The notes under the pieces were generated by a model. It did no database searches and was not told where the DNA came from. It saw only the letters and a list, made by a program, of their open reading frames with translations. Position numbers and translations under genes: made by a program. A DNA stretch of 64,000 nt from Candidatus Kerfeldbacteria bacterium (GTDB lineage: Bacteria > Patescibacteriota > Patescibacteriia > UBA9570 > XYC2-FULL-38-9), in the NCBI GenBank assembly GCA_016182555.1, contig JACPGJ010000008.1:220272-284271 (forward strand), written 5' to 3'. Positions 7,235 through 62,938 of this stretch are shown here, one piece after another (within the stretch, counting starts at the first letter, position 1; each line of letters starts with the position of its first letter).

Positions 7235-7245
7235 GTACTGAAATG

Positions 7246-7316
7246 CAGGGGTGGTCGGAATCGAACCGACAGTATTCGCTCTGGAGGCGAGTGGTTTGCC
7301 ACTAACCGACACCCCT
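7246..7316 (-). tRNA. trnW: tRNA-Trp (anticodon CCA)
   Basis: Cloverleaf folded by hand from the minus strand: acceptor AGGGGTG/CACCCCT, D arm GGTT/AACC, anticodon loop CUCCAGA, T arm GTCGG-TTCGATT-CCGAC. No encoded CCA. Confidence 0.8.
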
Positions 7317-7360
7317 ATACGACTAAAGTAAAAATAGTATAGCGCCGTTTCCTCTATCGT

Positions 7361-7804
7361 TCAAGCCTGGGGAAGTTGCATCAAGCTCTGTAAATCTTTC
7401 ACGGTTTTTTGTACTGCTGCATCGTCTAGTGTCACCAACTGCTGAGCCACACTTTGGGCAACGCCTGCGGTTTTCATATCACCCGGGCGGCGCGGCAAAA
7501 TATGAATTTCTAAGTGATCTTTTTGTGCTTGCTCTGGTGTGCCATCATTCATCAACATGGTAAAACCGAAGGCTTGGGTTAACCGCATGGCCCAAAAAGT
7601 CACCTTCTTCAATAAATACCCGAACTCTTCAATATCATCTGGCGTGAAACTATAAAAATGCGGATCGTGCCGCTTTGGAATGACAATCACATGCCCGTCA
7701 CCAAATGTTTCGCGTGCAACAATGACTCGAAACAATTTTGTTTCATAAAATTGCTCTGGTGGCGGTGGAGCATCGAAACAGTAGCGACAAGCATTCTGAT
7801 TCAT
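7361..7804 (-). CDS. HIT family hydrolase (histidine triad)
   Basis: DHLEIHILPRR histidine-triad motif near the C-terminus of a 147-aa protein. Confidence 0.75.
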   Translation of the reverse strand: MNQNACRYCFDAPPPPEQFYETKLFRVIVARETFGDGHVIVIPKRHDPHFYSFTPDDIEEFGYLLKKVTFWAMRLTQAFGFTMLMNDGTPEQAQKDHLEIHILPRRPGDMKTAGVAQSVAQQLVTLDDAAVQKTVKDLQSLMQLPQA

Positions 7805-7813
7805 TGCTGTATA

Positions 7814-7963
7814 TTATTTTGTTTCTTTGTGGAGCGTATGTTTCTTGCAATACTTGCAGTACTTGTTTTTCTCTAAACGGGGAAGCCGTTTCTTTTTGAA
7901 ATCGTAGTACGTGCGTTGCTTACACACCGTGCATTCCAGTTTAATCAAATTTTCTTGTGACAT
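7814..7963 (-). CDS. rpmG: 50S ribosomal protein L33
   Basis: 49 aa, not in the ORF track (<60 aa): [49 protein letters not shown], with two CxxC zinc-ribbon pairs, a typical L33. Confidence 0.85.
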
Positions 7964-7991
7964 ATCTCTTATTAGTTAATACTCTCTTGTG

Positions 7992-8063
7992 AGCCGAAGA
8001 GAGGACTCGAACCCCCAACCAACGGTTTACAAAACCGCTGCTCTACCATTGAGCTACTTCGGC
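7992..8063 (-). tRNA. tRNA-Thr (anticodon UGU)
   Basis: Acceptor GCCGAAG/CTTCGGC, D arm GCTC-AATGGTA-GAGC, anticodon stem GCGGT/ACCGT with loop UUUGUAA, T loop TTCGAGT. Confidence 0.8.
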
Positions 8064-8096
8064 AGGCGCGGTATGCACCTTGGACAAAAAGTCCGG

Positions 8097-8180
8097 TGGG
8101 CCGGGAGGGATTTGAACCCCCGAAGGCGCAAGTCCATCTGGTCTACAGCCAGATCCATTTGACCACTTTGGTACCGACCC
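8097..8180 (-). tRNA. tRNA-Tyr (anticodon GUA), long-variable-arm type
   Basis: Acceptor GGGTCGG/CCGGCCC, anticodon stem TCTGG/CCAGA with loop CUGUAGA, 15-nt variable arm, T loop TTCAAAT, discriminator A then CC. Confidence 0.8.
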
Positions 8181-49893: not shown

Positions 49894-52074
49894 CTATAGG
49901 TCTAATGGTGCTGCTGTTGATTGAGAAGAATGTTGCAAAGACGATGAGCTGCCTCCAGCACCAGCTGGTTGTTGGCCGCCACCTCCACCACCACTTTTCT
50001 TACGACGCCTTCGACGACGCTTCGCACTCGCACTCGTTTGTCCTGAAGCCGGCGATTGGCTTTGACCTGAACGTTGTGTTTGCGGCTGGGGTTGACGTTG
50101 GGGCGGACGAGAGAGTGGCGGTTGATCTTGACCTTGAGGAATATGGGCTGCTTGTGGCCGAACTTGCGTTGGCTTTGCTGGAGATTGTGGTGCAGATTGT
50201 TGTGGAAGCATCTGCGGCAAGACAACACGTTGCGGTTGGTTCCCGCTGGGTGTCGCCGATTGTGGTGACTGAGATGCGGAACGTACTGGCTGAGGTTGAA
50301 TTTGAACCTGTCGTGGCGCTTGTGGCTGTGGTCGCGGTGAAGGTTGCGGTTGGACTTGCGCACGATGTTGTACTGGTTGAGGCTGACGTTGGGCTGGTCG
50401 CGGCGACTGCGATTGAGGTTGACGCGATTGTTGTGGTTTGCGATCCAATTTCTGGGGCATGGATTTCTGTGGTGAAGGTGTAGGAGCGAGAACTACTGCT
50501 GGTGATGACGAAGGAAACCCGGATAAAAAATTAATTTCTCTATCTCGAAGTTCATCAATGTCATTTTGTGGCCGTGCTATCGTTGCTGCTTTCGGTGCTT
50601 TCGGTGGTGGAGGCGGTGCCGCTAGGCCCTTTTTTTTATTCAATTGTTCTGTTTCCGCTGCTCCTTCATTCTTTTCTTGCTGTTTTTCATCTTCTGTTTT
50701 TGTGTTCGTCATGGGCTCATCCACAGTATCGGCTTCATCAATGTCAACGTTAATATCAGACCACTTCATAATATTTTCTTCTACCGCGGCACGATTTTTT
50801 GCATATCGCTCACGCGACAACTGAATGACTTTTTCTTTATTTCCCGTTTCTCCCGTCAGCGGCGGTAAGGTGCTCGCAGAAAATGGGCTGGAAGAAACAC
50901 CATCAATCATCAAACGCAAATAAATATGATGTGCGGGTAGTGTTACTAAATCTTCTTGCATAAATGTTGGCTGGAATTCCTTTTCTAATTCCTCCGCATC
51001 CGCTGCACCCACACGAAACGCAATTAACGTACCCACATTACCAAATACGGCTGGAGCCACTACCTCGTTGAGCTGTTCAATATATTGGTGAGCCAAAATT
51101 AAATCCAGCCGATATTTTCGCGCCTCAGATAAAATGCCCGCAAAGGATTCGGTTGCAAAATTTTGAAACTCATCGACGTACAAATAAAAATCGCGCCGTT
51201 CTTTTTCCGGAATATTCACACGGCTCATAGCAGCCAGTTGCATTTTGGTAATCATCATCGCCCCAAGCAGCGCCGAATTTTCTTCACCAATGCGACCTTT
51301 GGCTAAATTCATCAGTAAAATTTTCCCAGAATCCATCAATTCACGCATATCAATTGTACTGCGGGTTTGACCGACAATATTGCGAATCAACTGCGAAGAC
51401 AAAAATTGTCCCACTTTATTCTGAATCGGCGCAATCGCTTCATTGCGAAATTTTTCCGAATAGTTATTGTATTCGTTCACCCAAAATGAACGCACGACCG
51501 GGTCGGTAATTTTTTTCAATATTTTTTTTCGATACCGTGTATCCACCAACATGCGTGTCACCCCCAGCAAGGTGGACCCGGGGTTTTCTAACAACGCCAA
51601 AATCGTGTTAATCAAAATATATTCCAAGCGGGGGCCCCACGAATCGGCCCAAATCTTTTTAAATACACCCACTAACCCATTCGATACCAGATTTTTATAT
51701 TCCGGGCTAACACTTTCCAAAATATTAAACGCAATGGGATAATCCAAATCTGCTGGGTTAAAATAGACCACATCATTAATACGGTTGTTCGGAACAAAGT
51801 TCACCACTTTTTCTACTAAGTCTCCGTGCGGGTCAACGACTGCCAAACCACGACCTTCGCGAATGTCTTGAATAATCATATTTTCCAACAACGTCGATTT
51901 GCCCATACCGGTTTTCCCAATCATGTACATGTGGCGCCGACGATCATCTTCCTTAATACCAAAACTACGGAACTCATTCCGAAAATTTGTTTGCGCAAAT
52001 ACCACTGGCTTATCCTGGTGTGGTGGAATCGATGCCGGGGCGGGTTGATCGTTTGGTGGCAATGGTTTATCCAT
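49894..52074 (-). CDS. paralogous TrwB/TraD-like P-loop ATPase with ~280-aa Pro/Gln-rich low-complexity C-terminal tail
   Basis: GKTGMGKSTLLENMIIQDIREGRGLAVVDPHGD, YLYVDEFQNF; 2 nt from the upstream paralog. Tail PQPQ.../RRRRRRKKSGGGGGG. Confidence 0.55.
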   Translation of the reverse strand: MDKPLPPNDQPAPASIPPHQDKPVVFAQTNFRNEFRSFGIKEDDRRRHMYMIGKTGMGKSTLLENMIIQDIREGRGLAVVDPHGDLVEKVVNFVPNNRINDVVYFNPADLDYPIAFNILESVSPEYKNLVSNGLVGVFKKIWADSWGPRLEYILINTILALLENPGSTLLGVTRMLVDTRYRKKILKKITDPVVRSFWVNEYNNYSEKFRNEAIAPIQNKVGQFLSSQLIRNIVGQTRSTIDMRELMDSGKILLMNLAKGRIGEENSALLGAMMITKMQLAAMSRVNIPEKERRDFYLYVDEFQNFATESFAGILSEARKYRLDLILAHQYIEQLNEVVAPAVFGNVGTLIAFRVGAADAEELEKEFQPTFMQEDLVTLPAHHIYLRLMIDGVSSSPFSASTLPPLTGETGNKEKVIQLSRERYAKNRAAVEENIMKWSDINVDIDEADTVDEPMTNTKTEDEKQQEKNEGAAETEQLNKKKGLAAPPPPPKAPKAATIARPQNDIDELRDREINFLSGFPSSSPAVVLAPTPSPQKSMPQKLDRKPQQSRQPQSQSPRPAQRQPQPVQHRAQVQPQPSPRPQPQAPRQVQIQPQPVRSASQSPQSATPSGNQPQRVVLPQMLPQQSAPQSPAKPTQVRPQAAHIPQGQDQPPLSRPPQRQPQPQTQRSGQSQSPASGQTSASAKRRRRRRKKSGGGGGGQQPAGAGGSSSSLQHSSQSTAAPLDL

Positions 52075-52098
52075 AGAAACAATGAGTTGAGCAAGAAA

Positions 52099-53754
52099 TT
52101 AGGCGAAGGGTAAATTGGCAGGTGGTTGTCCTTTCTGGTTTGGATCACTGCTTTGTTGCGTGGGTGTCGGTATATTCGTGGGCCCAGGCACTGGTTGGGT
52201 CGGAGTGGAACCACCACTTGGCGATGGCGACAAACGCTTAATAGGACGGACATTTGGTGGTAGCCCAGCCATAGAACGAGTAAGGTCCACTTGCGGTGTT
52301 GCTGTACCACCAGAAGGAGGCGGGGGTGGCGGTGGCACAATACTGCGTTGTGGCAAACCCGAAGGCGGTACTGGAATTTGCTGCCCAGAACTAGCAGAAT
52401 CTGGGCTAGATGCTGGTTCAACCATTTGCTCAGCAGAGGGCTGCAATACTGTTGACGGTATATCGAATGGTAAACGTGCTGGGGGTTCGGATTTTTTTGA
52501 TACCGTTTTGGTTACCAGCGGTGCCTTCACTGTCATTACTGGGAAATGGAAGATACTCGCAATTTCGACATTCGATAGGACTTGCTGCAATTCCCCTTCC
52601 CAGTTAGATCGTCCTTTATATGAATTAAAAATTCTATTTTTTCTCACGTTCTGTTGCCACGTTGGGAAAATATATGCTGGCAAGTTCGTACGAGTACGAC
52701 GACCGTACACTAACGCATTTAAGTCCGTGGTATTAAATTGTTTGATAGAACCCTGAATGGCCGCAGCAACACGTGGTGGGCTAAAAATTTCTTTGGGTGC
52801 AATATAAATGAAGCGAAATTTACATTGAAACGGGATACGGGCAATCTTTTTCTGAATCTCAACAATAACCTGCTGTTCACCGGTGGTTAAATTCAAATAA
52901 TTTCCTAAACTATCTGGTACAGGTGGTGGTGGTGGCGTAATTCCGGTAGCGGAAAAGAGGGCATTATGGATCCCCTCGAGTAACACCAATGGCGCATCTA
53001 ATATTTTATCCACCGTGTTTCGCGTACTCCCTTTTTTCCTACCAATCAATTTTTCGAATTCTGCCACTCCCTTATCACGCCACGAAAATGCTTGTGGGGT
53101 AATAACAAATTGCAACCATACCTGCTCACCCGGACGCAAGCGGCTCATAATTTCCAAAATAGCCGCCATCGGGTCTGCAAATATTCCTGTTAATGGATGT
53201 TCAAAATACTCGTATGTTTTTATTGGATACACATCAGATTTAGCGAGCACGAATTCTACCCCAAACAGATCAAATTTTGGATCAGGGTACTTCTGTGGCG
53301 CATTCGGTACATAGTCCTCGACCTCCACAATTTCTGCATCTGGATACTGTGCAAAAATCGCTCCCTTCACTAAGTCGACATTATAGGTATCGCAACGAAT
53401 AAAATATTGAATATACCCATCAATACTCACCAATTCCAAAGAAAAAGTATCCAAAAACATTCCTTGCCACCATTTCTGCTTAAACGTAAACGGAATAAAC
53501 ACGCCATGCATATTCGCAATAATCTGCTCTACCGCTTTCATACTCTGTTCATTCAACTTGGGCACATCAATAGCGAGTAACACCTGTTTTTTACTTTTTG
53601 CATACATTCCCCATATCCAAAAAAACCACGTATCTTTCACCATGAAATAAAACACAGGCAAGAAAGCGATCCAGCCGCCGGCACGAAATAATTGGATGAG
53701 TCCTTGAAATGGATTATGTGCATCTCCAAGGAGTTGTTGAACAATGCTCTCCAT
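52099..53754 (-). CDS. membrane protein with Pro-rich C-terminal region, unknown function (linked to the ATPase pair)
   Basis: N-terminal TM helix GGWIAFLPVFYFMVKDTWFFWIWGMYA; PPPPPPPSGG and P/S/T-rich tail. Track start is TTG at 53766; ATG at 53754 used. Confidence 0.4.
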   Translation of the reverse strand: MESIVQQLLGDAHNPFQGLIQLFRAGGWIAFLPVFYFMVKDTWFFWIWGMYAKSKKQVLLAIDVPKLNEQSMKAVEQIIANMHGVFIPFTFKQKWWQGMFLDTFSLELVSIDGYIQYFIRCDTYNVDLVKGAIFAQYPDAEIVEVEDYVPNAPQKYPDPKFDLFGVEFVLAKSDVYPIKTYEYFEHPLTGIFADPMAAILEIMSRLRPGEQVWLQFVITPQAFSWRDKGVAEFEKLIGRKKGSTRNTVDKILDAPLVLLEGIHNALFSATGITPPPPPVPDSLGNYLNLTTGEQQVIVEIQKKIARIPFQCKFRFIYIAPKEIFSPPRVAAAIQGSIKQFNTTDLNALVYGRRTRTNLPAYIFPTWQQNVRKNRIFNSYKGRSNWEGELQQVLSNVEIASIFHFPVMTVKAPLVTKTVSKKSEPPARLPFDIPSTVLQPSAEQMVEPASSPDSASSGQQIPVPPSGLPQRSIVPPPPPPPSGGTATPQVDLTRSMAGLPPNVRPIKRLSPSPSGGSTPTQPVPGPTNIPTPTQQSSDPNQKGQPPANLPFA

Positions 53755-53784
53755 GAACGATTTCAATTTTTATTTGTATCTCTA

Positions 53785-54918
53785 TTATGCACCAGAAATG
53801 GCAGTTGGAACAGGGGGTTCTGCCAATGTATATTTCCCGTCATTGGTCTTCCGAAATATATGTTTATCTGTTAACGCTAAATGAATCGTATTTTTCTTCA
53901 CAATACGTTGTTGTAATACGCGCTCAACAATTTCGCTGCGCTGCAACGGCGTACCGGCTTTTTTCAATATTGCCACAATGACGTTCGATACCACCCCATC
54001 AGTAAAGCCCCATTCACGTAATGCGTAAATGCCACGCCCCACAAGCACATATTCAGGGTTGAGGATGAGTTCGTTATGCACCGTGGGCGGATACGCTTGT
54101 TTTTTAAAAATTTTAGTAATGCGACGAGCAATTTCTTCAAAATGCATTGGTTTCCCCTCTTTCTTCAGCACCAAATACACGCGGTCATTCATACGCTTTG
54201 GTAAAATGAGCCCCCATTCGGTTAAACCATATTCATCAAACGGATTTTTTGAAATTTTTGCAGAAATATCGATATAGGCAAGTACCGCGTCTTCTGTCAG
54301 CTTCTGCTGATTCGCGATATAAAATGGCTTTTGCACAAATGCTTCAAACAACTCATCAAATATCTTCGGCGTGCCAATTTCACGAATCACCGCTTCTAAC
54401 GCAGCAATACTCTGATCGACAAATTCCATCGATGCTAAAACCAACTTCCATCCTGGCAAATATTTTTTCGATTTTGGAATTGGTGTGAGCTTATCATTCA
54501 ACAATTCGTTCAAAATAAAAGCAATACTCTGCCGATTCTGTGACGTATCATCATTGGCAGCCAGCAGGACATCAAACATCATTTCACGAGTCATGACACC
54601 CCCGTGTTGGTTTAATAACGAAATGACTAAATGTTCCACAGGCTTAATCACTTCAGCAAATGCCGGAGACGCTTTCATTTTGGCAATGGACTGGCTTTCA
54701 ATCTGCCGTATGCGTTCCCGAGTAACATGATACAAGGAACCAATTGTTTCTAATGTCTCCTTACCTTGTTCTGTTAAACCATAACGACGCCGCAGAACAT
54801 CTGCTTCTTTAGATGACAACGTTTTTAAGAGAGTAGTAAGTATTTCTAATGGATGAAATAACTGTTTTTCCTGGTCTTCTTTACTGGAGAGTACGCGATC
54901 AAGTATTGAATCTGCCAT
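53785..54918 (-). CDS. protein with N-terminal sigma-70 region-4-like HTH and a ~280-aa uncharacterised C-terminal domain
   Basis: LSSKEADVLRRRYGLTEQGKETLETIGSLYHVTRERIRQIESQSIAKMK matches sigma70 region 4.2; no region 2 present. Confidence 0.5.
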   Translation of the reverse strand: MADSILDRVLSSKEDQEKQLFHPLEILTTLLKTLSSKEADVLRRRYGLTEQGKETLETIGSLYHVTRERIRQIESQSIAKMKASPAFAEVIKPVEHLVISLLNQHGGVMTREMMFDVLLAANDDTSQNRQSIAFILNELLNDKLTPIPKSKKYLPGWKLVLASMEFVDQSIAALEAVIREIGTPKIFDELFEAFVQKPFYIANQQKLTEDAVLAYIDISAKISKNPFDEYGLTEWGLILPKRMNDRVYLVLKKEGKPMHFEEIARRITKIFKKQAYPPTVHNELILNPEYVLVGRGIYALREWGFTDGVVSNVIVAILKKAGTPLQRSEIVERVLQQRIVKKNTIHLALTDKHIFRKTNDGKYTLAEPPVPTAISGA

Positions 54919-55497: not shown

Positions 55498-56391
55498 TTA
55501 TTTTTTGAGTATTTTTTGGCCAACGAGCAATAACGGACTGGCAATAAATATAGAAGAATAGGTACCGAAAATAATACCAATCAAGAGGGTGAAGACAAAA
55601 TGGTGAATGGATTCGCCACCAAACAAATACAGAACCAGTAATACCAAGAGGGTTGCCAGCGAAGTATTCAGGGAACGCGCTAAGGTGGTATTAATACTGC
55701 TGTTTATAATTTCACGAAATGTTTTTGTGGCGCGGTCTTTCAACCCTTCACGAATACGGTCATAGACGACAATTGTATCATGCACAGAAAAGCCAAGAAT
55801 GGTCAGAAGTGCAGTGACGAAGAGTGAATCTATTTGGACATCAAAAAAGTGACCCAACAGAGAAAAAACTCCTAGAACAAGCAAAATATCATGTGCTAGC
55901 GCGATAATGGCGGATAGCCCAAATACCCAAGAGGGAACGGGCCCTTGCGACACTTTTCGGAATGCATAAGAGATATAGGCGACAATGGCCAAAAGCACAA
56001 GCAATAGGGCGGTGACAGCCTTATGTTTGAGTTCAGCGCCAAGGGTAGGGCCAATCGTGGAAAAACTCTGCTCCGTTACTCCTTTATCCGTAAACAATTG
56101 CAATATCTGTTCGCGTTGGTCGTTATTAATATATGGCAATTTAATCAGTAAATCGGTATCGCCAGCTGTTTGTATGCGTTCATCAGTAATATTGACTGTA
56201 GATAATGCCGCGCTCATCTCATCTATACTTGGGCGGGAGGCGGTGTCAGGAAAATGCAGCTGAATGGAACTACCTCCGGTAAAATCGATACCTAATTTCA
56301 ACCCCCATACTGCCAAAAAAACAACACTCACGAGTGCAGAGACAAAGGAGATCGTCGCCCAATATTTTGAGGTATCAATAATTCTATACAT
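55498..56391 (-). CDS. secF: protein translocase subunit SecF
   Basis: Six-TM SecF pattern (GLDFTGGSSIQLHF..., ...IVVYDRIRE...). Confidence 0.85.
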   Translation of the reverse strand: MYRIIDTSKYWATISFVSALVSVVFLAVWGLKLGIDFTGGSSIQLHFPDTASRPSIDEMSAALSTVNITDERIQTAGDTDLLIKLPYINNDQREQILQLFTDKGVTEQSFSTIGPTLGAELKHKAVTALLLVLLAIVAYISYAFRKVSQGPVPSWVFGLSAIIALAHDILLVLGVFSLLGHFFDVQIDSLFVTALLTILGFSVHDTIVVYDRIREGLKDRATKTFREIINSSINTTLARSLNTSLATLLVLLVLYLFGGESIHHFVFTLLIGIIFGTYSSIFIASPLLLVGQKILKK

Positions 56392-56395
56392 AAAT

Positions 56396-58102
56396 TTATT
56401 TATCGTGTTGTTTCATCTTGCGTACGCCAAACCAAGCCACATTGTTAATACGGAACAGACCAAGCAGATTGCGAGTGATGGTGATGGCAGAGAACATACT
56501 GACCACAATACCAATCGCCAGTGTAATAGCAAAACCGCGAATGAGTGAAGACCCAAACCAGTACAAAATGAGACAAGTAATCAACGATGACGCATTTGAA
56601 TCGCGAATAGATGTCCACGCACGCTTGAATCCATCATGAATACTTTGGCTTACCGGTTTGCCACTGCGCAATTCTTCTTTCATGCGTTCAAAAATGAGTA
56701 CGTTCGCATCCACCGCCATACCGATAGAGAGAATAAAACCCGCAATACCCGCAAGCGTAAGGGTTACTGGCCAGAGTTTAAAAATAGCGAGCACGAGTAA
56801 TGAATAGATACAGAGGGCAATAACCGCCATAAACCCGGGCAAGCGATAATACACGGTCATGAAAATAGACAAGAGGAATAGCCCAAGGACGCCCGCGAAT
56901 AAACTGCGTTCAATAGATTCTTGACCAAGGGTAGGACCAATATTTTGCTGGCTAATTAAGGTAATGGGTACCGGCAGTGCGCCAGCATTCAGGCGTTGCG
57001 CTAACTGCTTAGCTTCTTCTAAGGTGAAGCTACCAGAAATAACCGCTTCTCCCGTATTAATCTCTTGCTGCACAACTGGTGCACTAATAATTTTATTATC
57101 TAAATAGATCGCCACTGTTTTCCCCACATTGTCACGGGTAATTTGAGCAAACAAATCTTTTCCCTCGTCATTAAACTTTAAGCTGACTGTTGGTAAGCCC
57201 GTGTTGGGTTCAAAGGTGACATCAGCACGATCAAGTTGTTCACCAGTGAGAGCAGTGTCAACATAATTTGGGCCGTTTTGCGCGGGTGTTTCTGGAATTT
57301 TACGCAATAGAATATGGTGTGCCGTCGCTTTTGCATTCACCGCTTCTTGCGCTGGCTGGTCCCCTTCTGCGGGTTTGGCTGGTACCGCATCTGTGCGGCT
57401 ATCGACACGAATAATATGATAACCAAAATCCGTTTCCACAATTTCTGGGTAAATTTTACCAACCTCTGCCTTAGTAAATACCACATCATCAAATGGCGGA
57501 ACTGTATCGCCCTGCTCAAATTCATCTAACACACCGCCTTTATCTTTTGAACCGGGGTCTTGCGAATTTTCGCGAGCGATTGCTTCAAAATCGGCACCTT
57601 CCGCTTGGGCCTGTACTAACAAACTTTCTGCTGTTTGCTTGGTCTCTTCATTTTTCTTGCGAATTTGTTCTTTTTGTTCGTCGGTATATTCTGGCGGTGG
57701 ACCTTCCGTTTTAAATGCCAAAGTCGGTGTTTCGCCAATGCGGGCAATCGCTTGAGAAATATCGGTTACGCCAGGCAATTCTACCAGCACACGCCAAGAT
57801 TCATTAGAACGAGTGGTTTGAATAGTCGGCTCACTCACACCAAAAGCATTGATTCGGTTTTCAATCACATCACGAACACCATCAAGTGCACCTTGCTGGT
57901 CAGCGACATCAATGTTCGAAACATCAGCGTCATATAATAAAGAAACACCACCTTGCAAATCAAGACCGAGTTGCACTTTGAGTTCACGCTGAATGTTACC
58001 AATATGTAGATTTGGACCTTTTGGATAATCCACAACGCCTGCCAAAACAGTTAACGCCAAAATACCCAATAACCCTAACCGAATTTTTGTCCGCATTTTC
58101 AT
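56396..58102 (-). CDS. secD: protein translocase subunit SecD with a parvulin-type PPIase domain inserted in the periplasmic P1 head
   Basis: SecD core (LGLDLQGGVSLLY, VIENRINAFGVSEPTIQ, IYLDNKIISAPVVQQEI, C-terminal TM bundle). An insert AESLLVQAQAEGADFEAIARENSQDPGSKDKGGVLDEFEQGDTVPPFDDVVFTKAEVGKIYPEIVETDFGYHIIRV aligns almost residue by residue with E. coli PpiC. Confidence 0.8.
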   Translation of the reverse strand: MKMRTKIRLGLLGILALTVLAGVVDYPKGPNLHIGNIQRELKVQLGLDLQGGVSLLYDADVSNIDVADQQGALDGVRDVIENRINAFGVSEPTIQTTRSNESWRVLVELPGVTDISQAIARIGETPTLAFKTEGPPPEYTDEQKEQIRKKNEETKQTAESLLVQAQAEGADFEAIARENSQDPGSKDKGGVLDEFEQGDTVPPFDDVVFTKAEVGKIYPEIVETDFGYHIIRVDSRTDAVPAKPAEGDQPAQEAVNAKATAHHILLRKIPETPAQNGPNYVDTALTGEQLDRADVTFEPNTGLPTVSLKFNDEGKDLFAQITRDNVGKTVAIYLDNKIISAPVVQQEINTGEAVISGSFTLEEAKQLAQRLNAGALPVPITLISQQNIGPTLGQESIERSLFAGVLGLFLLSIFMTVYYRLPGFMAVIALCIYSLLVLAIFKLWPVTLTLAGIAGFILSIGMAVDANVLIFERMKEELRSGKPVSQSIHDGFKRAWTSIRDSNASSLITCLILYWFGSSLIRGFAITLAIGIVVSMFSAITITRNLLGLFRINNVAWFGVRKMKQHDK

Positions 58103-58294: not shown

Positions 58295-61200
58295 ATGCAA
58301 ATCTCTATTTTCTCCCTCATTATGTATCATTCCTGGTTAAGAAAAATCATTCTTGGCCTCAGCTTCATGGGCATGCTTTTTCTTTGTTCCGCTTCTTCAA
58401 CATTTGCCGCTACTTGGACAGTGAATTCTCCTGAAGATTCCAGTGACGGCAGCTGCACAATGCCCTATACCAACGTCAGCAACGATTGTACATTACGTGA
58501 AGCTGTGGCTGCAGCGAACGCCACGAGTGATGCTGATACGATTACCTTCAGTATCGATAGTTCATTTACATCGAATGCTTCATATTATGCGGATGGACAA
58601 TATACCATTACCCTTGCTTCTGCTGTCACAACTATTTCTGGTCCGACGACCATATCTGCCGCAAGCAGTTGGGATAGTACACACGATCGACCAGGAATTC
58701 GTTTATATAGCAGCAGTACGTCATTTAACGCCCTCACGTTTGGGAGTGGCGCAACGAACAGCCGTGTCTCGGCTCTTGAGTTGGCAGGATTCAATACCGC
58801 GATCACCGCAAGCGGAACAGGAATGACTATTGGAACGAATTGCGATGGAGTGGATGATTCCGCTGAACGAAATATTTTACATAGTGGCATTGTTGGCATT
58901 GCAGCCAACAGTGCGCAATTTCATATTACCGGAAATATCATTGGATTAGATGACGATGGCGACACCTATCGCGGATATAGCAAACAAAGTATCAATATCA
59001 CCGGTGCGGCAACCGATAACGGTATCATTGGTTTTCATGAAGGCAGTACCGGTAGTTGTTCAGCAGCGACACAACGCAACATCATTGCCGGGAGTACAGG
59101 TTCATTCGCAACAATTGCTGTCACTGGAACGGGAACCGCGAAACTTGCTGGCGATACCGCCCTTGGACCAGACCATATCAGTATTGCGGGAAATTATATT
59201 GGAGTCGATGTGACCGGAACCAAAAATCGCAGCGGAAAACAAAATAGCGGAACAGGAAGTGGCAGTGGGGTGGTTGTTTCAAACAACGCCACACTGAATT
59301 GGATCGGCACAGACGGAGATGGGCTTGATGATGAGCAAGAGCAAAATGTGATCGTATCCGCCAGTGTTGGTGTGAGTTTAAACAACGGCAATAATCGTGC
59401 AGCAGGAAATTATATCGGCGTGAATGCAATCGGAAACACAACCATGGGAAATACCATGTTGGTCGGCATTATTTTACGTGGCGTGAGTAGTATTGCTGGT
59501 TGGTGTGACACGAGTATTCATGCGGCACTCTGTTTTGATGGTGGATCCGAGACAAACCAACGAAATGTGGTGGGTGGGGCAACTTTAGAAGGCATACGAT
59601 TTGGTGTCGATGCCGATTCTTCTCTTATCTATGGAAATTATATTGGCGTAGGCGCCGATGGCACGAGCGATATTGGCAATACTACCGTTGGTGCTTTTGT
59701 GCATCGTGCATCCAAAAATAATCGTATTGGTGGTACGGGCTCACGCGCAAATGTGATAAAATTTAACGGCATCGGCATACAACTCAATGGCAGTTACACC
59801 GGCACGCCAACAACACGAGCGTCGCAGACACCGATGACGAACATTACCATTGCGGAAAATACCGTGACTAATAATGATACGATTGGCATTCAAGCCTATT
59901 GGACAGAAAATTATGACACGACGGTGGGCGTTGACAGTATTACGATCAATAATAACACCGTAGAAGATAATGGGACGATTGGTATTGATGTATGGGGATC
60001 TTCACCGACCATTGATGGGAATACGATTCGCGATAATGGCAGCTACGGCATGTCTATTCACCCTGCCTTCATTGCGTACAATACTTATACTGAAGCGGTG
60101 GAAAGTTATTCACCGGCAGACGCGGCTACGAATCTTGGTGCGTTTCCGATCGTTACGAATAATACGCTTGCCAGAAATGGCGCGGAGGCCATCTATCAAC
60201 TCGATGCATCAGCAGAAAATAGCAACACGTTGTATAGAGATAACACCTTTGGGGATACCAATGGTTTTTCCGCGATTGCACAAACATGGTATGGCGCATT
60301 GGAAATTCTTGATCGCGATGGAAACCCGATTCCAACGGCGACATGGACAAGTACCACAGGTATACTGACTCCCGAAGATACCGCTTTGCTCGATACAGCG
60401 CGGGAAACGAGCGCGGCAAATGATGTGAATGGAAGTGACATGGTTTTTGGTCCAAGCGGAATAAGCTACACAGATGTACGCACCTGGTTGGTGATGACTG
60501 CCTATACAGTCAGCGGTGACGGAACACAAACTGATTTTAATACTTATACTGTTCGCAGTGACGGAACGTATGCTGCCGGTGCAGCACATGCAACGACATA
60601 TACATTTGACGGACTCGATAATGAAACCGCGTATGCTGATGTGCTTCCCAATGGCATACAAACCGATGGAGTCTATCGATTTCAAATTGCCAAAGTGCGC
60701 GCGTCCACAATTCCTGAAACACCAATGAATAACACACCCAACGATGGGTCTATTGACCTGCCGCCAGCCAGCGTCACACTCCAAACTTCCATATTTAACG
60801 ATGCGGAAGAAACACATCAATCTTCAATTTGGCAAATTTTTTCTACGGTGGAAGCGTGTGATACAAATGGAACTGCAGATATATTCGATATCACTTCTTC
60901 TAGTGCGTTAACGAATCTCACGCTATCTGCTGATGTGCTCACGGAAGAAACAACGTATTTCTGGCATGTCGCATATATCAATTCCTACGACAACGTCAGC
61001 AATTTTTCTCCCTGTACATCGTTGACGACACTTCGTACAACACCAGCATTATCTTCCGCTATCCCTGATCAACAATGGAATGAGGACGAACAGTTGAATA
61101 ATGCGGTTGATTTAGATGATTATTTTACGGATGCTGAAGGAGAAACACTAACCTATACTGCAGTGGTGACCGACATGGAACACATGAATGTACGCATTGA

Positions 61201-62938
61201 TACGGAAACACATATCGTTTCCTTTACTGCCACGGAACATTGGTTTGGTACTGGTAGTGTTATCTTTACAGCGTGCGATACCGACGGTCAATGCGAATCA
61301 TCTAACAACATACAGCTTACAGTCAATACCGTGAATGATATTCCTGGAGCACCGATGGGTGGCTTTTTGCCAACCAACGAAACAACGGTGACCACATTCA
61401 CTCCAACACTTTCTTGGAATGATGGATCGGATATTGAAGATACTGGAGCGAACTTACAATATGAAATTCACATCAGTACACAACCGAATCCACAGACAGA
61501 TACATCCAGTAGCGTGTTGTTTAGCGCACTCGGTGCATCGACAATCACGTTGAGTGAAAAATTGTTAAACAACACAACGTATTATTATGCTGTACGAACG
61601 ATTGATTCCAATGGTGCGGTTTCGGATTGGTCGTTGATCGGTTCATTTGTGACTAACGTGGTGACTGTACCGACAATCACCCTTTCAAAAACCATTGAAG
61701 TGATTGATAGTGATAGCGGAGAAATGTATACGATTGCCAGAATCTATGACCTCACACCACCGTGTCGATTGATCACTGCGACAATGACTACCAATGACGT
61801 ACATCCGGGTGATACTTTGCGTTTTACGCTACAATTTAATAATATCGGAAATATACTCGCAACCTCCGCAGTCATCACAGACAATATACCTGCCGATACA
61901 GATTTTGTTATAGGGTCAAGCACACGCACAGAAAATGGAATATCCACTGCGTTTAATGATGCTACAACTGTGGATGGCACAAGTCTTTCTTTTGCTGTCG
62001 GTGCTGTTGCCGCAGGAACTAGCCAAAGTATTTCATACGATGTTGCGTTGAGGAATCCACTGGCGAATACGAGCATCGATTCTGCAGCCGCCCTATTCAC
62101 CGCAACAGAGATTGATGATGGATCTCAGGTGGTTTCCAATACAACGAGTGTACCCGTAACGTCCGGTACTGTCCGTCTACAAGTAAAAACCAGCGCTGGA
62201 GTGGGTATGCAAAATACCACACTGCGGTTATATATCGATAACGTGAATGTAGACAATGAAATTCTCACGACAGCTACTGATGCCGATGGAGTCGCCATCG
62301 TGAATGGATTACGTGCCGGTACTTACTGGGTGGAAGCGCTAGTAGATAAAACACGCTATACCATTCCAGAGCCGCAGTTGATTATATTGACGTATAACGC
62401 CACAACAACGAGCACATTGACGATTGCTGATGAACAAAAAAAAAGCGAATCTGATGACGTCGTTGAAGATACAAAACCCGATAACACAGATGACTCTACG
62501 TCAAATGCTGATGAACAGGAAGAAAATGATACGCCCAAAGATACCTCTGATGAAAATGAAACCACAGAACCAGATGATGGAGAAGCATCGGTAGATGAAG
62601 CTGATGATACGACCAATGACCAAGCCGTTGAACAAGCGGTGATACCTGAACAAATAAATAGTGCAACCACACATAATTATTATATCACGGACAAAGCGTA
62701 TCTTGGGGCAAACAACACTGAAACAACAACGGAAACCACCGTCTCTGCGCCAACCAGTGGACAAATCATTGACGAAACGAATGCAACAACCAAACAATCA
62801 CCGATCACCAATGAAGAAGTGACTGGTTCAAATAGTCAACCAAAAAAACGACGAGTGGCAATCGTGCTCATTATCATGACCAGTGCGTTACTCCTATTGC
62901 TCAATCGCAAAAAATTATTCAAACATGGGGATCGTTGA
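58295..62938 (+). CDS. giant (1547 aa) secreted surface protein: signal peptide, parallel beta-helix repeats, Ig/FN3-like and DUF11-like domains, acidic stalk, C-terminal TM anchor
   Basis: Repeated NNT(V/I)xxNxxxGI beta-helix motifs (ITINNNTVEDNGTIGIDVWGSSPTIDGNTIRDNGSYGMSI). D/E/T-rich segment near the end. C-terminal VAIVLIIMTSALLLLLNRKK. Confidence 0.6.
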   Translation: MQISIFSLIMYHSWLRKIILGLSFMGMLFLCSASSTFAATWTVNSPEDSSDGSCTMPYTNVSNDCTLREAVAAANATSDADTITFSIDSSFTSNASYYADGQYTITLASAVTTISGPTTISAASSWDSTHDRPGIRLYSSSTSFNALTFGSGATNSRVSALELAGFNTAITASGTGMTIGTNCDGVDDSAERNILHSGIVGIAANSAQFHITGNIIGLDDDGDTYRGYSKQSINITGAATDNGIIGFHEGSTGSCSAATQRNIIAGSTGSFATIAVTGTGTAKLAGDTALGPDHISIAGNYIGVDVTGTKNRSGKQNSGTGSGSGVVVSNNATLNWIGTDGDGLDDEQEQNVIVSASVGVSLNNGNNRAAGNYIGVNAIGNTTMGNTMLVGIILRGVSSIAGWCDTSIHAALCFDGGSETNQRNVVGGATLEGIRFGVDADSSLIYGNYIGVGADGTSDIGNTTVGAFVHRASKNNRIGGTGSRANVIKFNGIGIQLNGSYTGTPTTRASQTPMTNITIAENTVTNNDTIGIQAYWTENYDTTVGVDSITINNNTVEDNGTIGIDVWGSSPTIDGNTIRDNGSYGMSIHPAFIAYNTYTEAVESYSPADAATNLGAFPIVTNNTLARNGAEAIYQLDASAENSNTLYRDNTFGDTNGFSAIAQTWYGALEILDRDGNPIPTATWTSTTGILTPEDTALLDTARETSAANDVNGSDMVFGPSGISYTDVRTWLVMTAYTVSGDGTQTDFNTYTVRSDGTYAAGAAHATTYTFDGLDNETAYADVLPNGIQTDGVYRFQIAKVRASTIPETPMNNTPNDGSIDLPPASVTLQTSIFNDAEETHQSSIWQIFSTVEACDTNGTADIFDITSSSALTNLTLSADVLTEETTYFWHVAYINSYDNVSNFSPCTSLTTLRTTPALSSAIPDQQWNEDEQLNNAVDLDDYFTDAEGETLTYTAVVTDMEHMNVRIDTETHIVSFTATEHWFGTGSVIFTACDTDGQCESSNNIQLTVNTVNDIPGAPMGGFLPTNETTVTTFTPTLSWNDGSDIEDTGANLQYEIHISTQPNPQTDTSSSVLFSALGASTITLSEKLLNNTTYYYAVRTIDSNGAVSDWSLIGSFVTNVVTVPTITLSKTIEVIDSDSGEMYTIARIYDLTPPCRLITATMTTNDVHPGDTLRFTLQFNNIGNILATSAVITDNIPADTDFVIGSSTRTENGISTAFNDATTVDGTSLSFAVGAVAAGTSQSISYDVALRNPLANTSIDSAAALFTATEIDDGSQVVSNTTSVPVTSGTVRLQVKTSAGVGMQNTTLRLYIDNVNVDNEILTTATDADGVAIVNGLRAGTYWVEALVDKTRYTIPEPQLIILTYNATTTSTLTIADEQKKSESDDVVEDTKPDNTDDSTSNADEQEENDTPKDTSDENETTEPDDGEASVDEADDTTNDQAVEQAVIPEQINSATTHNYYITDKAYLGANNTETTTETTVSAPTSGQIIDETNATTKQSPITNEEVTGSNSQPKKRRVAIVLIIMTSALLLLLNRKKLFKHGDR

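What the first reader, a model, noticed from the sequence alone, without database searches (positions are those of the whole stretch)
56396..58102. SecD with an embedded, apparently circularly permuted parvulin PPIase domain
In the periplasmic P1 head region SecD contains a segment that aligns nearly residue-for-residue with E. coli PpiC (GADFEAIA..., GGVLDEFEQGDTVPPFDDVVF, FGYHIIRV). The parvulin N-terminal strand motif (A-HHILLRK, cf. PpiC ALHILVK) appears immediately after the domain instead of before it. That suggests a permutation or a partial second repeat. A foldase physically built into the SecDF translocon motor would couple chaperoning to export. I am not aware this architecture is described.
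Basis: seen in the sequence. Interest (0 to 1): 0.55.

Follow-up and report, generated by a model that had tools for sequence, protein, structure and literature searches.

The report
SecD with built-in permuted prolyl isomerase
The protein-export helper SecD of this tiny uncultured (Patescibacteria) bacterium carries a protein-folding enzyme domain (a parvulin prolyl isomerase) inserted into its outward-facing arm in a re-ordered ("circularly permuted") form, and this design is conserved across many related lineages but apparently undescribed.

Summary
ORF 56396-58102(-) is a genuine SecD (TIGR01129 410 bits; secF follows 4 nt downstream). A parvulin domain (Pfam Rotamase_3, E=5e-25) lies between the P1 base and the P1 head.

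The permutation is real:
- Every HMM and PDB alignment starts after parvulin strand beta1.
- A conserved "A-x-A-S/H-H-I-L" strand follows a linker of variable length.
- Pasted in front of the core, that strand is the best of ~400 15-mers in 59 of 62 family members (median +7.6 bits).
- A domain-only AlphaFold model (pLDDT 95) places it as a strand and matches PrsA/Pin parvulins (rmsd 1.7-2.5 A).

It is not a mis-assembly. All 120 listed homologues (55-75% identical, many assemblies, contigs up to 1.18 Mb) share the architecture, as do Buchanan-, Komeili- and Moranbacteria.

A sister clade (Uhrbacteria, Magasanikbacteria) has a second, canonical parvulin nested in the linker. There the His position of the beta1-less core covaries with the trailing strand (MI 1.33 bits; 0/5000 shuffles).

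Catalytic and pocket residues are conserved. The most likely function is a PrsA-like foldase fixed to the translocon's pulling arm; this is inferred, not shown. I found no paper describing the fusion or a permuted parvulin. Verdict: new variant of known kinds.

The parts
56396..58102 (-). secD gene, 568 aa (public gene calls start 2 codons later, 566 aa)
   Evidence: ORF. TIGR01129 410 bits against cut-off 244. Foldseek of the full model hits SecDF 5xan/5yhf/3aqp, E about 1e-23 to 1e-21. Identical protein P0001 found in an independent assembly.
58028..58096 (-). N-terminal transmembrane helix TM1 (residues 3-25), which places the following P1 region outside the cytoplasm
   Evidence: Helix H3-25 in the AF2 model. 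Aligns with the N-terminus of T. thermophilus SecDF.
57707..57880 (-). P1 base, N-terminal part (SecD_1st, residues 75-132), ending in strand 128-134 '..TLAFKTE'
   Evidence: PF21760, E 1.8e-16. phmmer aligns residues 39-136 with TtSecDF 29-123.
57389..57682 (-). Parvulin core in the order alpha1-alpha2-alpha3-beta2-alpha4-beta3-beta4 (residues 141-238), lacking beta1. Contains D182, L192, T200, F204 and H229.
   Evidence: Rotamase_3 E 5.4e-25 and Rotamase E 1.8e-19, both starting after beta1. PDB parvulin hits. AF2 pLDDT 91-98. Foldseek: 6xd8 rmsd 1.7 A over 78 columns, 2rqs 2.5 A over 79. Residue conservation. Translation checked.
57332..57388 (-). Variable linker joining the old C-terminus (beta4) to the relocated beta1 (residues 239-257, 'AVPAKPAEGDQPAQEAVNA'). 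A second complete parvulin is nested at this position in the sister clade.
   Evidence: Length ranges from 1 to 60 residues between the same alignment columns across 62 homologues, and the sequence is acidic and low-complexity. Nested unit b in the double form. Translation checked.
57302..57331 (-). Relocated parvulin strand beta1 ('KATAHHILLR', residues 258-267), carrying H263, the equivalent of Pin1 H59
   Evidence: A261, H263, I264 and L265 are at least 90% conserved. Same motif as canonical beta1 '(R/K)ASHILI' in 67 ordinary parvulins. Best of ~400 15-mers in 59 of 62 proteins. Strand with pLDDT about 94-96 in both models. Translation checked.
56969..57268 (-). P1 head subdomain (residues 279-378)
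   Evidence: PF22599, E 4.3e-32, residues 282-378. phmmer aligns residues 284 onward with TtSecDF 159 onward.
56462..56962 (-). SecD transmembrane bundle TM2-TM6 (residues 381-547), including the invariant Asp D465 in 'GMAVDANVLIFER'
   Evidence: PF02355. D465 is invariant in 62 sequences and aligns with 'gaavDgnvlsfer' of TtSecDF.
55498..56391 (-). secF gene, 297 aa, starting 4 nt after the secD stop (same operon)
   Evidence: TIGR00966, 283 bits against cut-off 160. PF02355, E 3.6e-58. Same order in independent contigs.

Best explanation
This is the SecD subunit of the SecDF translocon motor of a Patescibacteria (CPR; Kerfeldbacteria-like) bacterium, and a PrsA/PpiC-type parvulin domain has been inserted into its extracytoplasmic P1 domain at the junction between the base and the mobile head. 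The domain is circularly permuted. The chain leaves the P1 base, enters the parvulin at helix alpha1, runs through to strand beta4, returns through a variable linker to a strand homologous to canonical beta1, and then exits into the P1 head. In ordinary parvulins beta1 leads directly into alpha1, so in this arrangement the entry and exit points should lie side by side and the domain should sit as a compact side-module on the hinge (this geometry is inferred from the canonical topology, not measured). The catalytic and pocket residues are kept: H263 on the relocated strand, H229, D182, L192 and F204, with Met (Thr in this protein) at position 200. The most likely function, which is inferred, is a peptidyl-prolyl isomerase and peptide-binding site held at the exit of the Sec channel, on the arm that captures and pulls emerging polypeptides. 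That would combine in one polypeptide the jobs done separately by SecDF plus lipoprotein PrsA in Firmicutes, PpiD in E. coli, or the PrsA-like dome proteins in Mycoplasma. Shown here: domain identities, insertion site, permutation, conservation and taxonomic recurrence. Inferred: catalytic activity, action on translocating substrates, and an origin from tandem parvulin repeats.
For: SecD identity and operon.
Parvulin identity: Rotamase_3 E 5e-25; PrsA 3e-14, PpiC 5e-10; Foldseek against PrsA fragment 6xd8: rmsd 1.7 A, 78 columns, TM 0.72 on target; CsPin 2rqs: 2.5 A, 79 columns.
Permutation:
(i) All profile and PDB alignments begin after beta1.
(ii) The conserved motif AxASHIL follows a linker of variable length and is identical to the N-terminal beta1 motif of 67 canonical parvulins.
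(iii) In-silico de-permutation extends the Pfam match from profile position ~28-34 to 16-17 in 4 of 4 proteins.
(iv) With a custom canonical HMM, the true segment is the single best of ~400 15-mers in 59 of 62 proteins, with median gain +7.55 bits against -0.5 for controls, and the HMM start moves from 15.5 to 2.
(v) The AF2 domain-only model has pLDDT 95 and pTM 0.85, with a 10-residue strand at that segment and no other sheet available to join.
(vi) Independent covariation in the two-parvulin sister clade: the His position of the beta1-less core's last strand covaries with the trailing strand, with MI 1.33 bits against a shuffle mean of 0.48 (0/5000), offset controls of 0.14-0.86, and Fisher p 9e-15.
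Active-site conservation.
Not an artefact.
Extracytoplasmic location: TM1 at residues 3-25 followed by P1.
Functional precedent for PPIase-SecDF association: M. pneumoniae dome complex (10.1101/2025.04.25.650208; 10.1101/2024.09.05.611430) and PpiD-YfgM-SecYEG (PMC9643414).
Against: No biochemical data exist for this domain; parvulin domains can keep their fold yet be catalytically inactive (stated for PpiD and SurA from general knowledge). The window protein has Thr where 48 of 62 relatives have the pocket Met. One Buchananbacteria homologue has Glu instead of the beta1 His. I could not access model coordinates, so the pairing of the relocated strand with beta4 and beta2 is inferred from DSSP, sequence homology and covariation rather than measured directly. 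The inter-domain geometry of the full model is uncertain (pTM 0.50). The covariation test is not corrected for phylogeny, although the neighbouring-column controls partly address this. A CPR survey reports PrsA annotations in all CPR classes (PMC9166423), so the fused domain need not replace a separate PrsA.
Confidence: 0.72

Rival explanations
1. The architecture is as described, but the inserted parvulin is not a working isomerase. It would act as a non-catalytic substrate-binding (chaperone) module, or as a structural brace that tunes the swing of the P1 head, as the non-catalytic parvulin domains of other envelope chaperones are thought to do.
For: In the two-parvulin sister clade the permuted unit a has clearly lost its pocket residues: the Met equivalent is P/A/E, Phe is often Leu, and His is often Asn/Ser. 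This shows the permuted scaffold is retained without catalysis there. The window protein has Thr at the pocket Met position, and L001 has Glu for the beta1 His. PMC9643414 treats PpiD as a translocon-associated chaperone. That the parvulin domains of PpiD and SurA P1 are catalytically inactive is general knowledge, not tested here.
Against: In the single form, to which the window protein belongs, the His pair, Asp, Leu and Phe are 89-98% conserved, which is much tighter than in the decayed unit a of the double form. In the double form a fully intact unit b is always present (115-118 of 118 for the His pair, Met, Phe and Leu). This suggests selection keeps one active pocket per SecD.
Confidence: 0.2
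2. There is no circular permutation. The parvulin simply lacks beta1, and the 'HHILL' strand belongs to SecD's own P1 head or linker and resembles beta1 by chance.
For: The Pfam P1-head match starts at profile position 18, so some N-terminal head elements are not accounted for. The Pfam score gain on de-permutation is small, at 1.6-3.9 bits.
Against: The segment is the best of ~400 15-mers in 59 of 62 proteins. The motif is identical to canonical beta1. SecDF structures align only from residue 277-284 onward, downstream of the strand. The domain-only model, which excludes the SecD head, still builds it as a confident strand. Covariation with the beta4 His position is seen in the sister clade.
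Confidence: 0.04
3. The trailing strand is only a non-functional relic of a lost second parvulin repeat and plays no structural role.
For: Tandem-parvulin proteins are common, and they naturally contain 'core-linker-beta1 of the next copy', which the permuted profile matches across copy boundaries. A double form exists.
Against: A relic would decay, but A261, H263, I264 and L265 are at least 90% conserved while the adjacent linker is hypervariable. A beta1-less parvulin would lack the central strand that carries one of the two active-site His residues. The models and the covariation place the strand in the sheet.
Confidence: 0.03
4. It is an assembly or gene-calling artefact that joins secD to a ppiC-like gene.
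For: None found.
Against: It is a single uninterrupted ORF. All 120 listed homologues at 55-75% identity carry both domain sets, from NCBI, JGI, ENA and Logan sources, on contigs up to 1.18 Mb. Six further CPR genomes show the same layout. An identical locus appears in an independent assembly. SecD sequence lies on both sides of the insert.
Confidence: 0.01

Closest known systems
PrsA foldase lipoprotein of Firmicutes (e.g. B. subtilis, B. anthracis PrsA; PDB 6vj6, 6vj4, 6xd8, 1zk6)
   Same: Closest parvulin by sequence and fold (6vj6 E 3e-14; 6xd8 rmsd 1.7 A). Asp at the Pin1-C113 position in an 'S-x-D-P-G-S' loop. Extracytoplasmic and membrane-tethered, and acts (PrsA) or would act (here) on proteins emerging from Sec in a monoderm-type envelope.
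   Different: PrsA is a separate lipoprotein whose parvulin is inserted, in canonical order, into an N/C chaperone domain. Here there is no N/C domain and no lipobox, the tether is SecD itself, and the strand order is permuted. The NCBIfam PrsA models score 44-49 bits against cut-offs of 343-361, so it is not a PrsA family member.
Mycoplasma pneumoniae Sec 'dome' translocation-folding complex (SecDF plus PrsA-like Mdp444/436/489)
   Same: A parvulin PPIase is held physically on SecDF at the trans side of the translocon, and substrate density contacts the PPIC domain (10.1101/2025.04.25.650208; 10.1101/2024.09.05.611430). It is likewise a genome-reduced bacterium without an outer membrane.
   Different: The association there is non-covalent, between separate large lipoproteins and SecDF, forming a chamber. 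Here a single ~125-residue domain is fused into the SecD P1 domain.
PpiD-YfgM bound to SecYEG in E. coli
   Same: A parvulin-containing, membrane-anchored chaperone stationed at the periplasmic exit of the Sec channel (PMC9643414).
   Different: It is a separate protein anchored by its own TM helix. Its parvulin is in canonical order and is regarded as catalytically inactive (general knowledge). It contacts SecY rather than being part of SecD.
Canonical SecDF (T. thermophilus 3aqp/5yhf, D. radiodurans 5xan)
   Same: Same TM bundle with the conserved Asp, the same P1 base and head, and an adjacent SecF.
   Different: TtSecDF has ~35 residues (124-158) where this protein has ~147 (137-283). E. 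coli SecD has its own unrelated expansion of ~190 residues at the same site. The site is therefore a known variable spot, but a parvulin there is not a described feature.
Tandem-parvulin chaperones (SurA and multi-parvulin proteins such as P0121, P0123)
   Same: They provide the linear order 'core-linker-beta1' across copy boundaries, which is a plausible raw material for permutation by duplication and truncation.
   Different: Each of their domains is complete in canonical order, and they are soluble or separately anchored rather than embedded in a transporter.

Membership tests
SecD (TIGR01129 / Pfam SecD_1st + SecDF_P1_head + SecD_SecF_C) | Family HMM score above the curated cut-off | tested here: met
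   TIGR01129 410.1 bits against cut-off 244.4. PF21760 59.8, PF22599 110.8 and PF02355 67.2 bits are all above their gathering scores.
SecD (TIGR01129 / Pfam SecD_1st + SecDF_P1_head + SecD_SecF_C) | N-terminal TM helix, large extracytoplasmic P1 domain and a C-terminal 5-TM bundle with the fold of SecDF | tested here: met
   AF2 secondary structure. Foldseek top hits are SecDF 5xan, 5xap, 5yhf and 3aqp, E 1.8e-23 to 6.9e-21.
SecD (TIGR01129 / Pfam SecD_1st + SecDF_P1_head + SecD_SecF_C) | Conserved intramembrane Asp of the proton path, and a partner SecF | tested here: met
   D465 is invariant in 62 sequences and aligns to the 'avDgnvl' motif of TtSecDF. secF lies 4 nt downstream, TIGR00966 283 bits. 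Which Tt residue number this Asp corresponds to comes from my memory of the literature and was not checked.
SecD (TIGR01129 / Pfam SecD_1st + SecDF_P1_head + SecD_SecF_C) | PMF-driven enhancement of protein export | not testable with these tools
   Needs genetics or biochemistry.
Parvulin PPIase domain (Pfam PF00639 Rotamase / PF13616 Rotamase_3) | Family HMM score above the gathering score | tested here: met
   PF13616 88.6 bits against 22.5, and PF00639 70.9 against 21.7.
Parvulin PPIase domain (Pfam PF00639 Rotamase / PF13616 Rotamase_3) | Parvulin fold (four-stranded antiparallel sheet packed by helices) | tested here: met
   Domain model pLDDT 95. Foldseek: 6xd8_A rmsd 1.7 A with TM(target) 0.72; 2rqs rmsd 2.5 A with TM 0.64; 6vj4 rmsd 2.7 A.
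Parvulin PPIase domain (Pfam PF00639 Rotamase / PF13616 Rotamase_3) | Canonical linear order beta1-alpha1-alpha2-alpha3-beta2-alpha4-beta3-beta4 | tested here: not met
   beta1 is absent in front of the domain (profile matches start at 9/97 and 28/116) and is present after beta4. It is a circular permutant of the fold rather than a canonical member.
   H263 59/62, D182 55/62, L192 60/62, Met at position 200 in 48/62 (Thr in the window protein), F204 60/62, H229 61/62.
Parvulin PPIase domain (Pfam PF00639 Rotamase / PF13616 Rotamase_3) | Peptidyl-prolyl cis/trans isomerase activity | not testable with these tools
   Needs an enzyme assay.
PrsA foldase (NCBIfam PRK03002 / PRK03095 / PRK02998) | Whole-protein score above the equivalog cut-off; lipoprotein with an N/C chaperone domain flanking the parvulin | tested here: not met
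   44-53 bits against cut-offs of 343-361, matching only the parvulin part of the profiles. The flanks are SecD, not a PrsA N/C domain.
PpiC / Par10 (NCBIfam NF011969) | Score above the equivalog cut-off; stand-alone ~93-aa protein | tested here: not met
   49.7-53.2 bits against cut-off 127, with profile positions 17-91 only.
Circular permutant (general criteria) | The element missing at one end is present, and homologous, at the other end, joined through a new linker between the old termini | tested here: met
   The linker varies from 1 to 60 residues between the same alignment columns.
Circular permutant (general criteria) | The relocated element occupies the same place in the 3D fold | tested here: inconclusive
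   Supported by the confident strand in the domain-only model and by covariation with the beta4 His position in the sister clade.

The most novel reading that the evidence does not exclude
A large part of the Patescibacteria (at least Kerfeld-, Buchanan-, Komeili-, Moran-, Uhr- and Magasanikbacteria) has hard-wired an active prolyl isomerase onto the moving P1 arm of SecDF, using a previously unrecognised circularly permuted parvulin fold. In some clades this fold hosts a second, canonical parvulin nested inside it (SecD P1 > permuted parvulin > canonical parvulin). If the PPIase acts on chains while SecDF pulls them, this would be the first covalently coupled translocation-folding machine of the Sec pathway. 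It would also be a natural minimal model for how translocon-associated foldases (PrsA, PpiD, the Mycoplasma dome) work.
Probability: 0.45. Interest if true: 0.72.

Novelty: new variant of a known kind. Interest (0 to 1): 0.58.

Why it matters
How proteins leaving the Sec channel are handed to folding catalysts is an active question (PpiD-YfgM in E. coli, PrsA in Firmicutes, the recently imaged SecDF-PrsA-like dome in Mycoplasma). Here evolution has made the link covalent, and has kept it across many lineages of genome-reduced bacteria. That argues that placing a PPIase next to the SecDF arm is functionally important. It also gives a simple construct in which the coupling can be tested, because there is one polypeptide and point mutants separate pulling from isomerisation. 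For protein evolution it is a clean natural example of circular permutation combined with domain insertion, with a nested two-domain relative that may record how it arose. I found no report of a permuted parvulin. For annotation, these proteins are currently labelled only 'SecD', and Pfam reports a truncated Rotamase match. KEGG-style 'PrsA present' calls in CPR genomes may also need re-examination.

Tried and rejected
1. Census by scanning GTDB genomes with the insert alignment. It was useful only for six CPR loci and as a source of canonical parvulins, and is not a census.

2. Census with the exhaustive representative search. The ranking was dominated by proteins with 2-7 parvulin repeats whose scores add up, and the family itself collapses into few 50%-identity clusters. 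The counts (58,513 at E<=1e-3; 806 at E<=1e-30) therefore do not measure the family. The search did reveal the double form (P0168).

3. Foldseek of the full model shows only SecDF and RND hits. A separate domain model was needed to see the parvulin.

4. Model coordinates are not exposed to scripts, so I could not measure strand pairing, His-His distance, or the position of the parvulin relative to the P1 head.

5. I suspected that NCBIfam NF009585 (SecDF, 993 positions) already models the insert, because it aligned over nearly equal lengths. Rejected: the insert alone does not hit it.

6. The first attempt at the covariation table used a wrong column and was redone.

7. Eight literature searches, covering 'SecD'+'parvulin', 'SecD'+'PPIase'+'Patescibacteria', 'circular permutation'+'parvulin', 'SecDF'+'PpiC'+'domain architecture', 'circularly permuted'+'PPIase', 'candidate phyla radiation'+'PrsA', 'SecD'+'rotamase' and 'SecDF'+'peptidyl-prolyl isomerase domain', found no description of the fusion or of a permuted parvulin. 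The 'giant genes' preprint that mentions both SecD and rotamase is unrelated.

8. I looked for a second parvulin in the 64-kb window and found none. This says little about the whole genome.
Full report
**Observation**

It is followed 4 nt downstream by a 297-aa ORF (55498..56391). Pfam assigns SecD_1st (residues 75-132), Rotamase_3 (146-236, E 5.4e-25), Rotamase (145-234, E 1.8e-19), SecDF_P1_head (282-378, E 4.3e-32) and SecD_SecF_C (381-547). NCBIfam calls it SecD (TIGR01129, 410 bits against a cut-off of 244) and calls the downstream gene SecF (TIGR00966, 283 against 160).

**It is a real, conserved architecture**

The 120 best homologues among 5.8 billion clustered proteins (55-75% identical) all carry both the Rotamase and the SecD Pfam domains. 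They come from NCBI, JGI, ENA and Logan assemblies, on contigs up to 1.18 Mb. Where named, they are plain 'protein translocase subunit SecD' of Patescibacteria or Candidatus Kerfeldbacteria. The identical protein, with the same neighbours, is found in an independent Logan assembly of run SRR12113422.

**Where the insert sits**

- The AlphaFold model of the whole protein (pLDDT 84, pTM 0.50) has an N-terminal TM helix (residues 3-25), the P1 region, and a helical bundle from residue 394. Foldseek matches it to the SecDF crystal structures 5xan, 5xap, 5yhf and 3aqp (E 1.8e-23 to 6.9e-21).
- phmmer aligns residues 39-136 with T. thermophilus SecDF 29-123, and residues 284-548 with TtSecDF 159-423. 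About 147 residues here therefore replace about 35 residues of TtSecDF at the junction between P1 base and P1 head.
- E. coli SecD aligns from its residue 325 onward, so it has its own unrelated expansion at the same place. The site is a variable hot spot.
- The intramembrane Asp (D465, 'GMAVDANVLIFER') is invariant, so nothing suggests a defective SecD.
- Because TM1 precedes P1, the insert is extracytoplasmic.

**The parvulin is circularly permuted**

Six lines of evidence support this.

1. Every profile or PDB alignment begins after strand beta1: Rotamase from profile position 9 of 97, Rotamase_3 from 28 of 116, PpiC from residue 17, and the PrsA fragment from residue 15.
2. In a 62-sequence alignment the core ends in 'FGYHIIKV'. 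It is followed by an acidic, low-complexity linker of 1-60 residues (measured between the same alignment columns), and then by a conserved 'A-x-A-S-H-I-L' in which A261, H263, I264 and L265 are at least 90% conserved. This is the same motif that opens 67 canonical parvulins collected from many phyla, '(R/K)ASHILI'.
3. Moving the segment to the front in silico extends the Pfam Rotamase_3 match back to profile position 16-17 in 4 of 4 proteins, with gains of 1.6-3.9 bits.
4. I ran a control test with a canonical-parvulin HMM built here. Among all ~400 15-mers of each SecD pasted in front of its core, the true post-linker segment is the single best in 59 of 62 proteins. The median gain is +7.55 bits, against -0.5 for controls, and only 188 of 25,393 controls reach the true score. 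HMM coverage moves from position 15.5 to position 2.
5. An AlphaFold model of the insert alone (residues 133-278) is very confident (pLDDT 95, pTM 0.85). Its order is alpha1, alpha2, short alpha3, beta2, alpha4, beta3/beta4, linker, then a 10-residue strand at the relocated segment. That construct contains no other sheet for the strand to join. Foldseek matches the model to the PrsA parvulin 6xd8 (rmsd 1.7 A over 78 columns, TM 0.72 on the target), archaeal Pin 2rqs (2.5 A over 79) and PrsA 6vj4 (2.7 A over 91). Sequential alignments that cover ~78 of 94-97 target residues are what one expects if one strand is out of order.
6. Independent covariation comes from a sister clade, described next.

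I could not obtain coordinates, so a direct non-sequential superposition is still missing.

**A nested two-parvulin relative**

The exhaustive representative search did not give a census, but it turned up P0168, a SecD with two parvulin units. Its 120 best homologues are SecDs of 649-775 aa with Rotamase and SecD domains. Named sources include Uhrbacteria, Magasanikbacteria and the Patescibacteria group, plus a few oddly labelled bins. One lies on an 886-kb chromosome-level record, again followed by secF.

- In 118 of 119 sequences the first unit is beta1-less and weak (HMM from position 13-19; 26-63 bits in the rows inspected). The second unit is a complete canonical parvulin (HMM 1-3 to ~100; 90-116 bits).
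- After unit b, directly before the P1 head, there is a conserved trailing strand 'E-Y-x-V-S-(R/H)-I-L-I-K'.
- The residue at the 'His position' of unit a's last strand covaries with the 'His position' of this trailing strand (N-R 28, H-H 23, S-R 18, A-A 5, and others).
- MI is 1.33 bits against 0.48 +/- 0.056 in 5000 shuffles, none of which reach it. Neighbouring-column controls give 0.14-0.86. The His/non-His table is 23/3/8/84, Fisher p 9e-15.
- The middle beta1 and unit b's beta4 are His in 118 of 118.

So unit a is completed by the trailing strand, which is the same permuted topology as in the window protein, and a canonical parvulin is nested in its beta4-to-beta1 connection. The window protein's 19-residue linker (nt 57332-57388) occupies that position.

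In the double form the pocket of unit a has decayed, while unit b keeps the His pair, Met, Phe and Leu in 115-118 of 118. In the single form the permuted domain itself keeps them.

**Active site**

| Residue here | Pin1 equivalent | Conservation |
|---|---|---|
| H263 (relocated strand) | H59 | 59/62 |
| D182 | C113 (Asp in PrsA/Par14-type parvulins) | 55/62 |
| L192 | L122 | 60/62 |
| position 200 | M130 | Met in 48/62; Thr in this protein |
| F204 | F134 | 60/62 |
| H229 | H157 | 61/62 |

The pattern is that of non-phospho-specific, PrsA/Par10-type parvulins.

**Mechanism (inferred)**

In canonical parvulins beta1 runs straight into alpha1. In the permuted form those two points become the domain's exit and entry, so the module should hang from the P1 hinge by two adjacent connections. 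This leaves base and head contiguous, which is a geometry well suited to domain insertion. The geometry is deduced from the canonical topology and was not measured.

SecDF is thought to use the proton-motive force to swing the P1 head, capturing and releasing the emerging chain (general knowledge from the SecDF structural literature, summarised in 10.1101/2025.04.25.650208). A prolyl isomerase and peptide-binding pocket on that arm would meet substrates as they leave SecYEG.

This is the job done by separate proteins elsewhere: lipoprotein PrsA in Firmicutes, PpiD-YfgM at SecYEG in E. coli (PMC9643414), and the PrsA-like Mdp444 dome bound to SecDF in Mycoplasma pneumoniae, where substrate density contacts the PPIC domain (10.1101/2025.04.25.650208; 10.1101/2024.09.05.611430). 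I rate the architecture and permutation at about 0.9, and the specific functional reading (active PPIase acting on translocating chains) at about 0.5-0.6. The main rival is a non-catalytic chaperone or brace role.

**Origin (speculative)**

Proteins with 2-7 tandem parvulins are common, and the permuted profile matches them across copy boundaries (core of copy n plus beta1 of copy n+1). Permutation by duplication and truncation of a tandem array is therefore plausible. Whether the single form lost unit b or the double form gained it cannot be decided here. The single-type core HMM scores unit b higher than unit a (73 against 55.5 bits), but that may only reflect unit a's decay.

**Comparison with known families and novelty**

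The protein is a member of SecD, with all testable features met. Its insert is a parvulin by sequence, fold and active-site residues, but it fails the canonical strand order, so I describe it as a circular permutant of the fold. It is not a PrsA or PpiC family member, since its scores are far below the curated cut-offs. No curated NCBIfam SecD/SecDF model covers the insert.

Public databases already hold hundreds of these sequences with precomputed Rotamase and SecD hits, so the domain co-occurrence is visible to anyone who looks. However, eight full-text searches found no paper describing the fusion, and none mentioning a circularly permuted parvulin. A CPR ecogenomics paper lists SecD and PrsA separately as present in CPR (PMC9166423).

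I classify it as a new variant of known kinds. Interest is moderate to high, 0.58. It is not a new kind of system, but it is a conserved, testable, covalent translocon-foldase coupling with an unusual nested and permuted fold history.

Noticed in passing
Proteins P0168, P0271-P0386 (e.g. L082 4001-6058, record OZ246416.1): A sister clade of Patescibacteria SecDs (649-775 aa; Uhrbacteria, Magasanikbacteria and others) carries two parvulin units. A decayed beta1-less unit a is completed by a trailing strand, and a fully conserved canonical unit b is nested in between. The His positions of unit a and the trailing strand covary (MI 1.33 bits, 0/5000 shuffles).
   Followed up: yes
L001 1922-3760 (Candidatus Buchananbacteria, CAIPBY010000021.1): This SecD homologue has 'VDVSEILLAT' as the relocated strand, with Glu in place of the otherwise conserved beta1 His, while its beta4 keeps 'FGYHII'. 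This may be a lineage with an altered or inactive site.
   Followed up: no
One search hits P0324, P0333, P0345, P0319: A few double-form SecD-parvulin proteins are labelled by their sources as Bipolaricaulota, Binatia, Eisenbacteria or Gracilibacteria. These are either mis-binned Patescibacteria contigs or a sign that the architecture reaches beyond the Parcubacteria-type lineages.
   Followed up: no
window 58295-62938 (+): A 1547-aa ORF lies divergent from secD. It has a signal-like N-terminus, a right-handed beta-helix region, an Ig-like Rha78A_N domain and DUF11, an acidic Thr/Asp/Glu-rich stalk and a C-terminal hydrophobic anchor. It looks like a giant surface protein typical of CPR genomes and is probably a Sec substrate.
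   Followed up: partly
window 52099-53766 (-) and composition bins 50000-50499, 52000-52499: A 555-aa ORF with no Pfam hit in my scan (the public record lists a weak DUF8128 hit) has a long Pro/Ser/Gly-rich C-terminal tail. Local GC (0.52-0.56) and GC skew (+0.28 to +0.32) spike in these bins, probably from CCN-rich coding on the minus strand.
   Followed up: partly
window 53785-54918 (-): A 377-aa protein combines a Sigma70 region 4 at its N-terminus with a HARE-HTH domain. This is not a standard sigma factor layout.
   Followed up: no
Proteins P0121, P0123, P0125: These proteins carry 3-5 or more tandem parvulin domains (up to 7 matched stretches), some separated by Pro/Thr-rich linkers. They are possible donors for permutation by duplication, and they show that a permuted-domain profile matches across copy boundaries.
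   Followed up: partly
window 58097-58102: The ORF's first ATG gives 'MKMRTK...' (568 aa), whereas the public gene call for the identical protein starts at the second Met (566 aa). The true start is undetermined.
   Followed up: no
window 7245-8180 (-): A cluster of three tRNA genes (Trp-CCA, Thr-TGT, Tyr-GTA).
   Followed up: no
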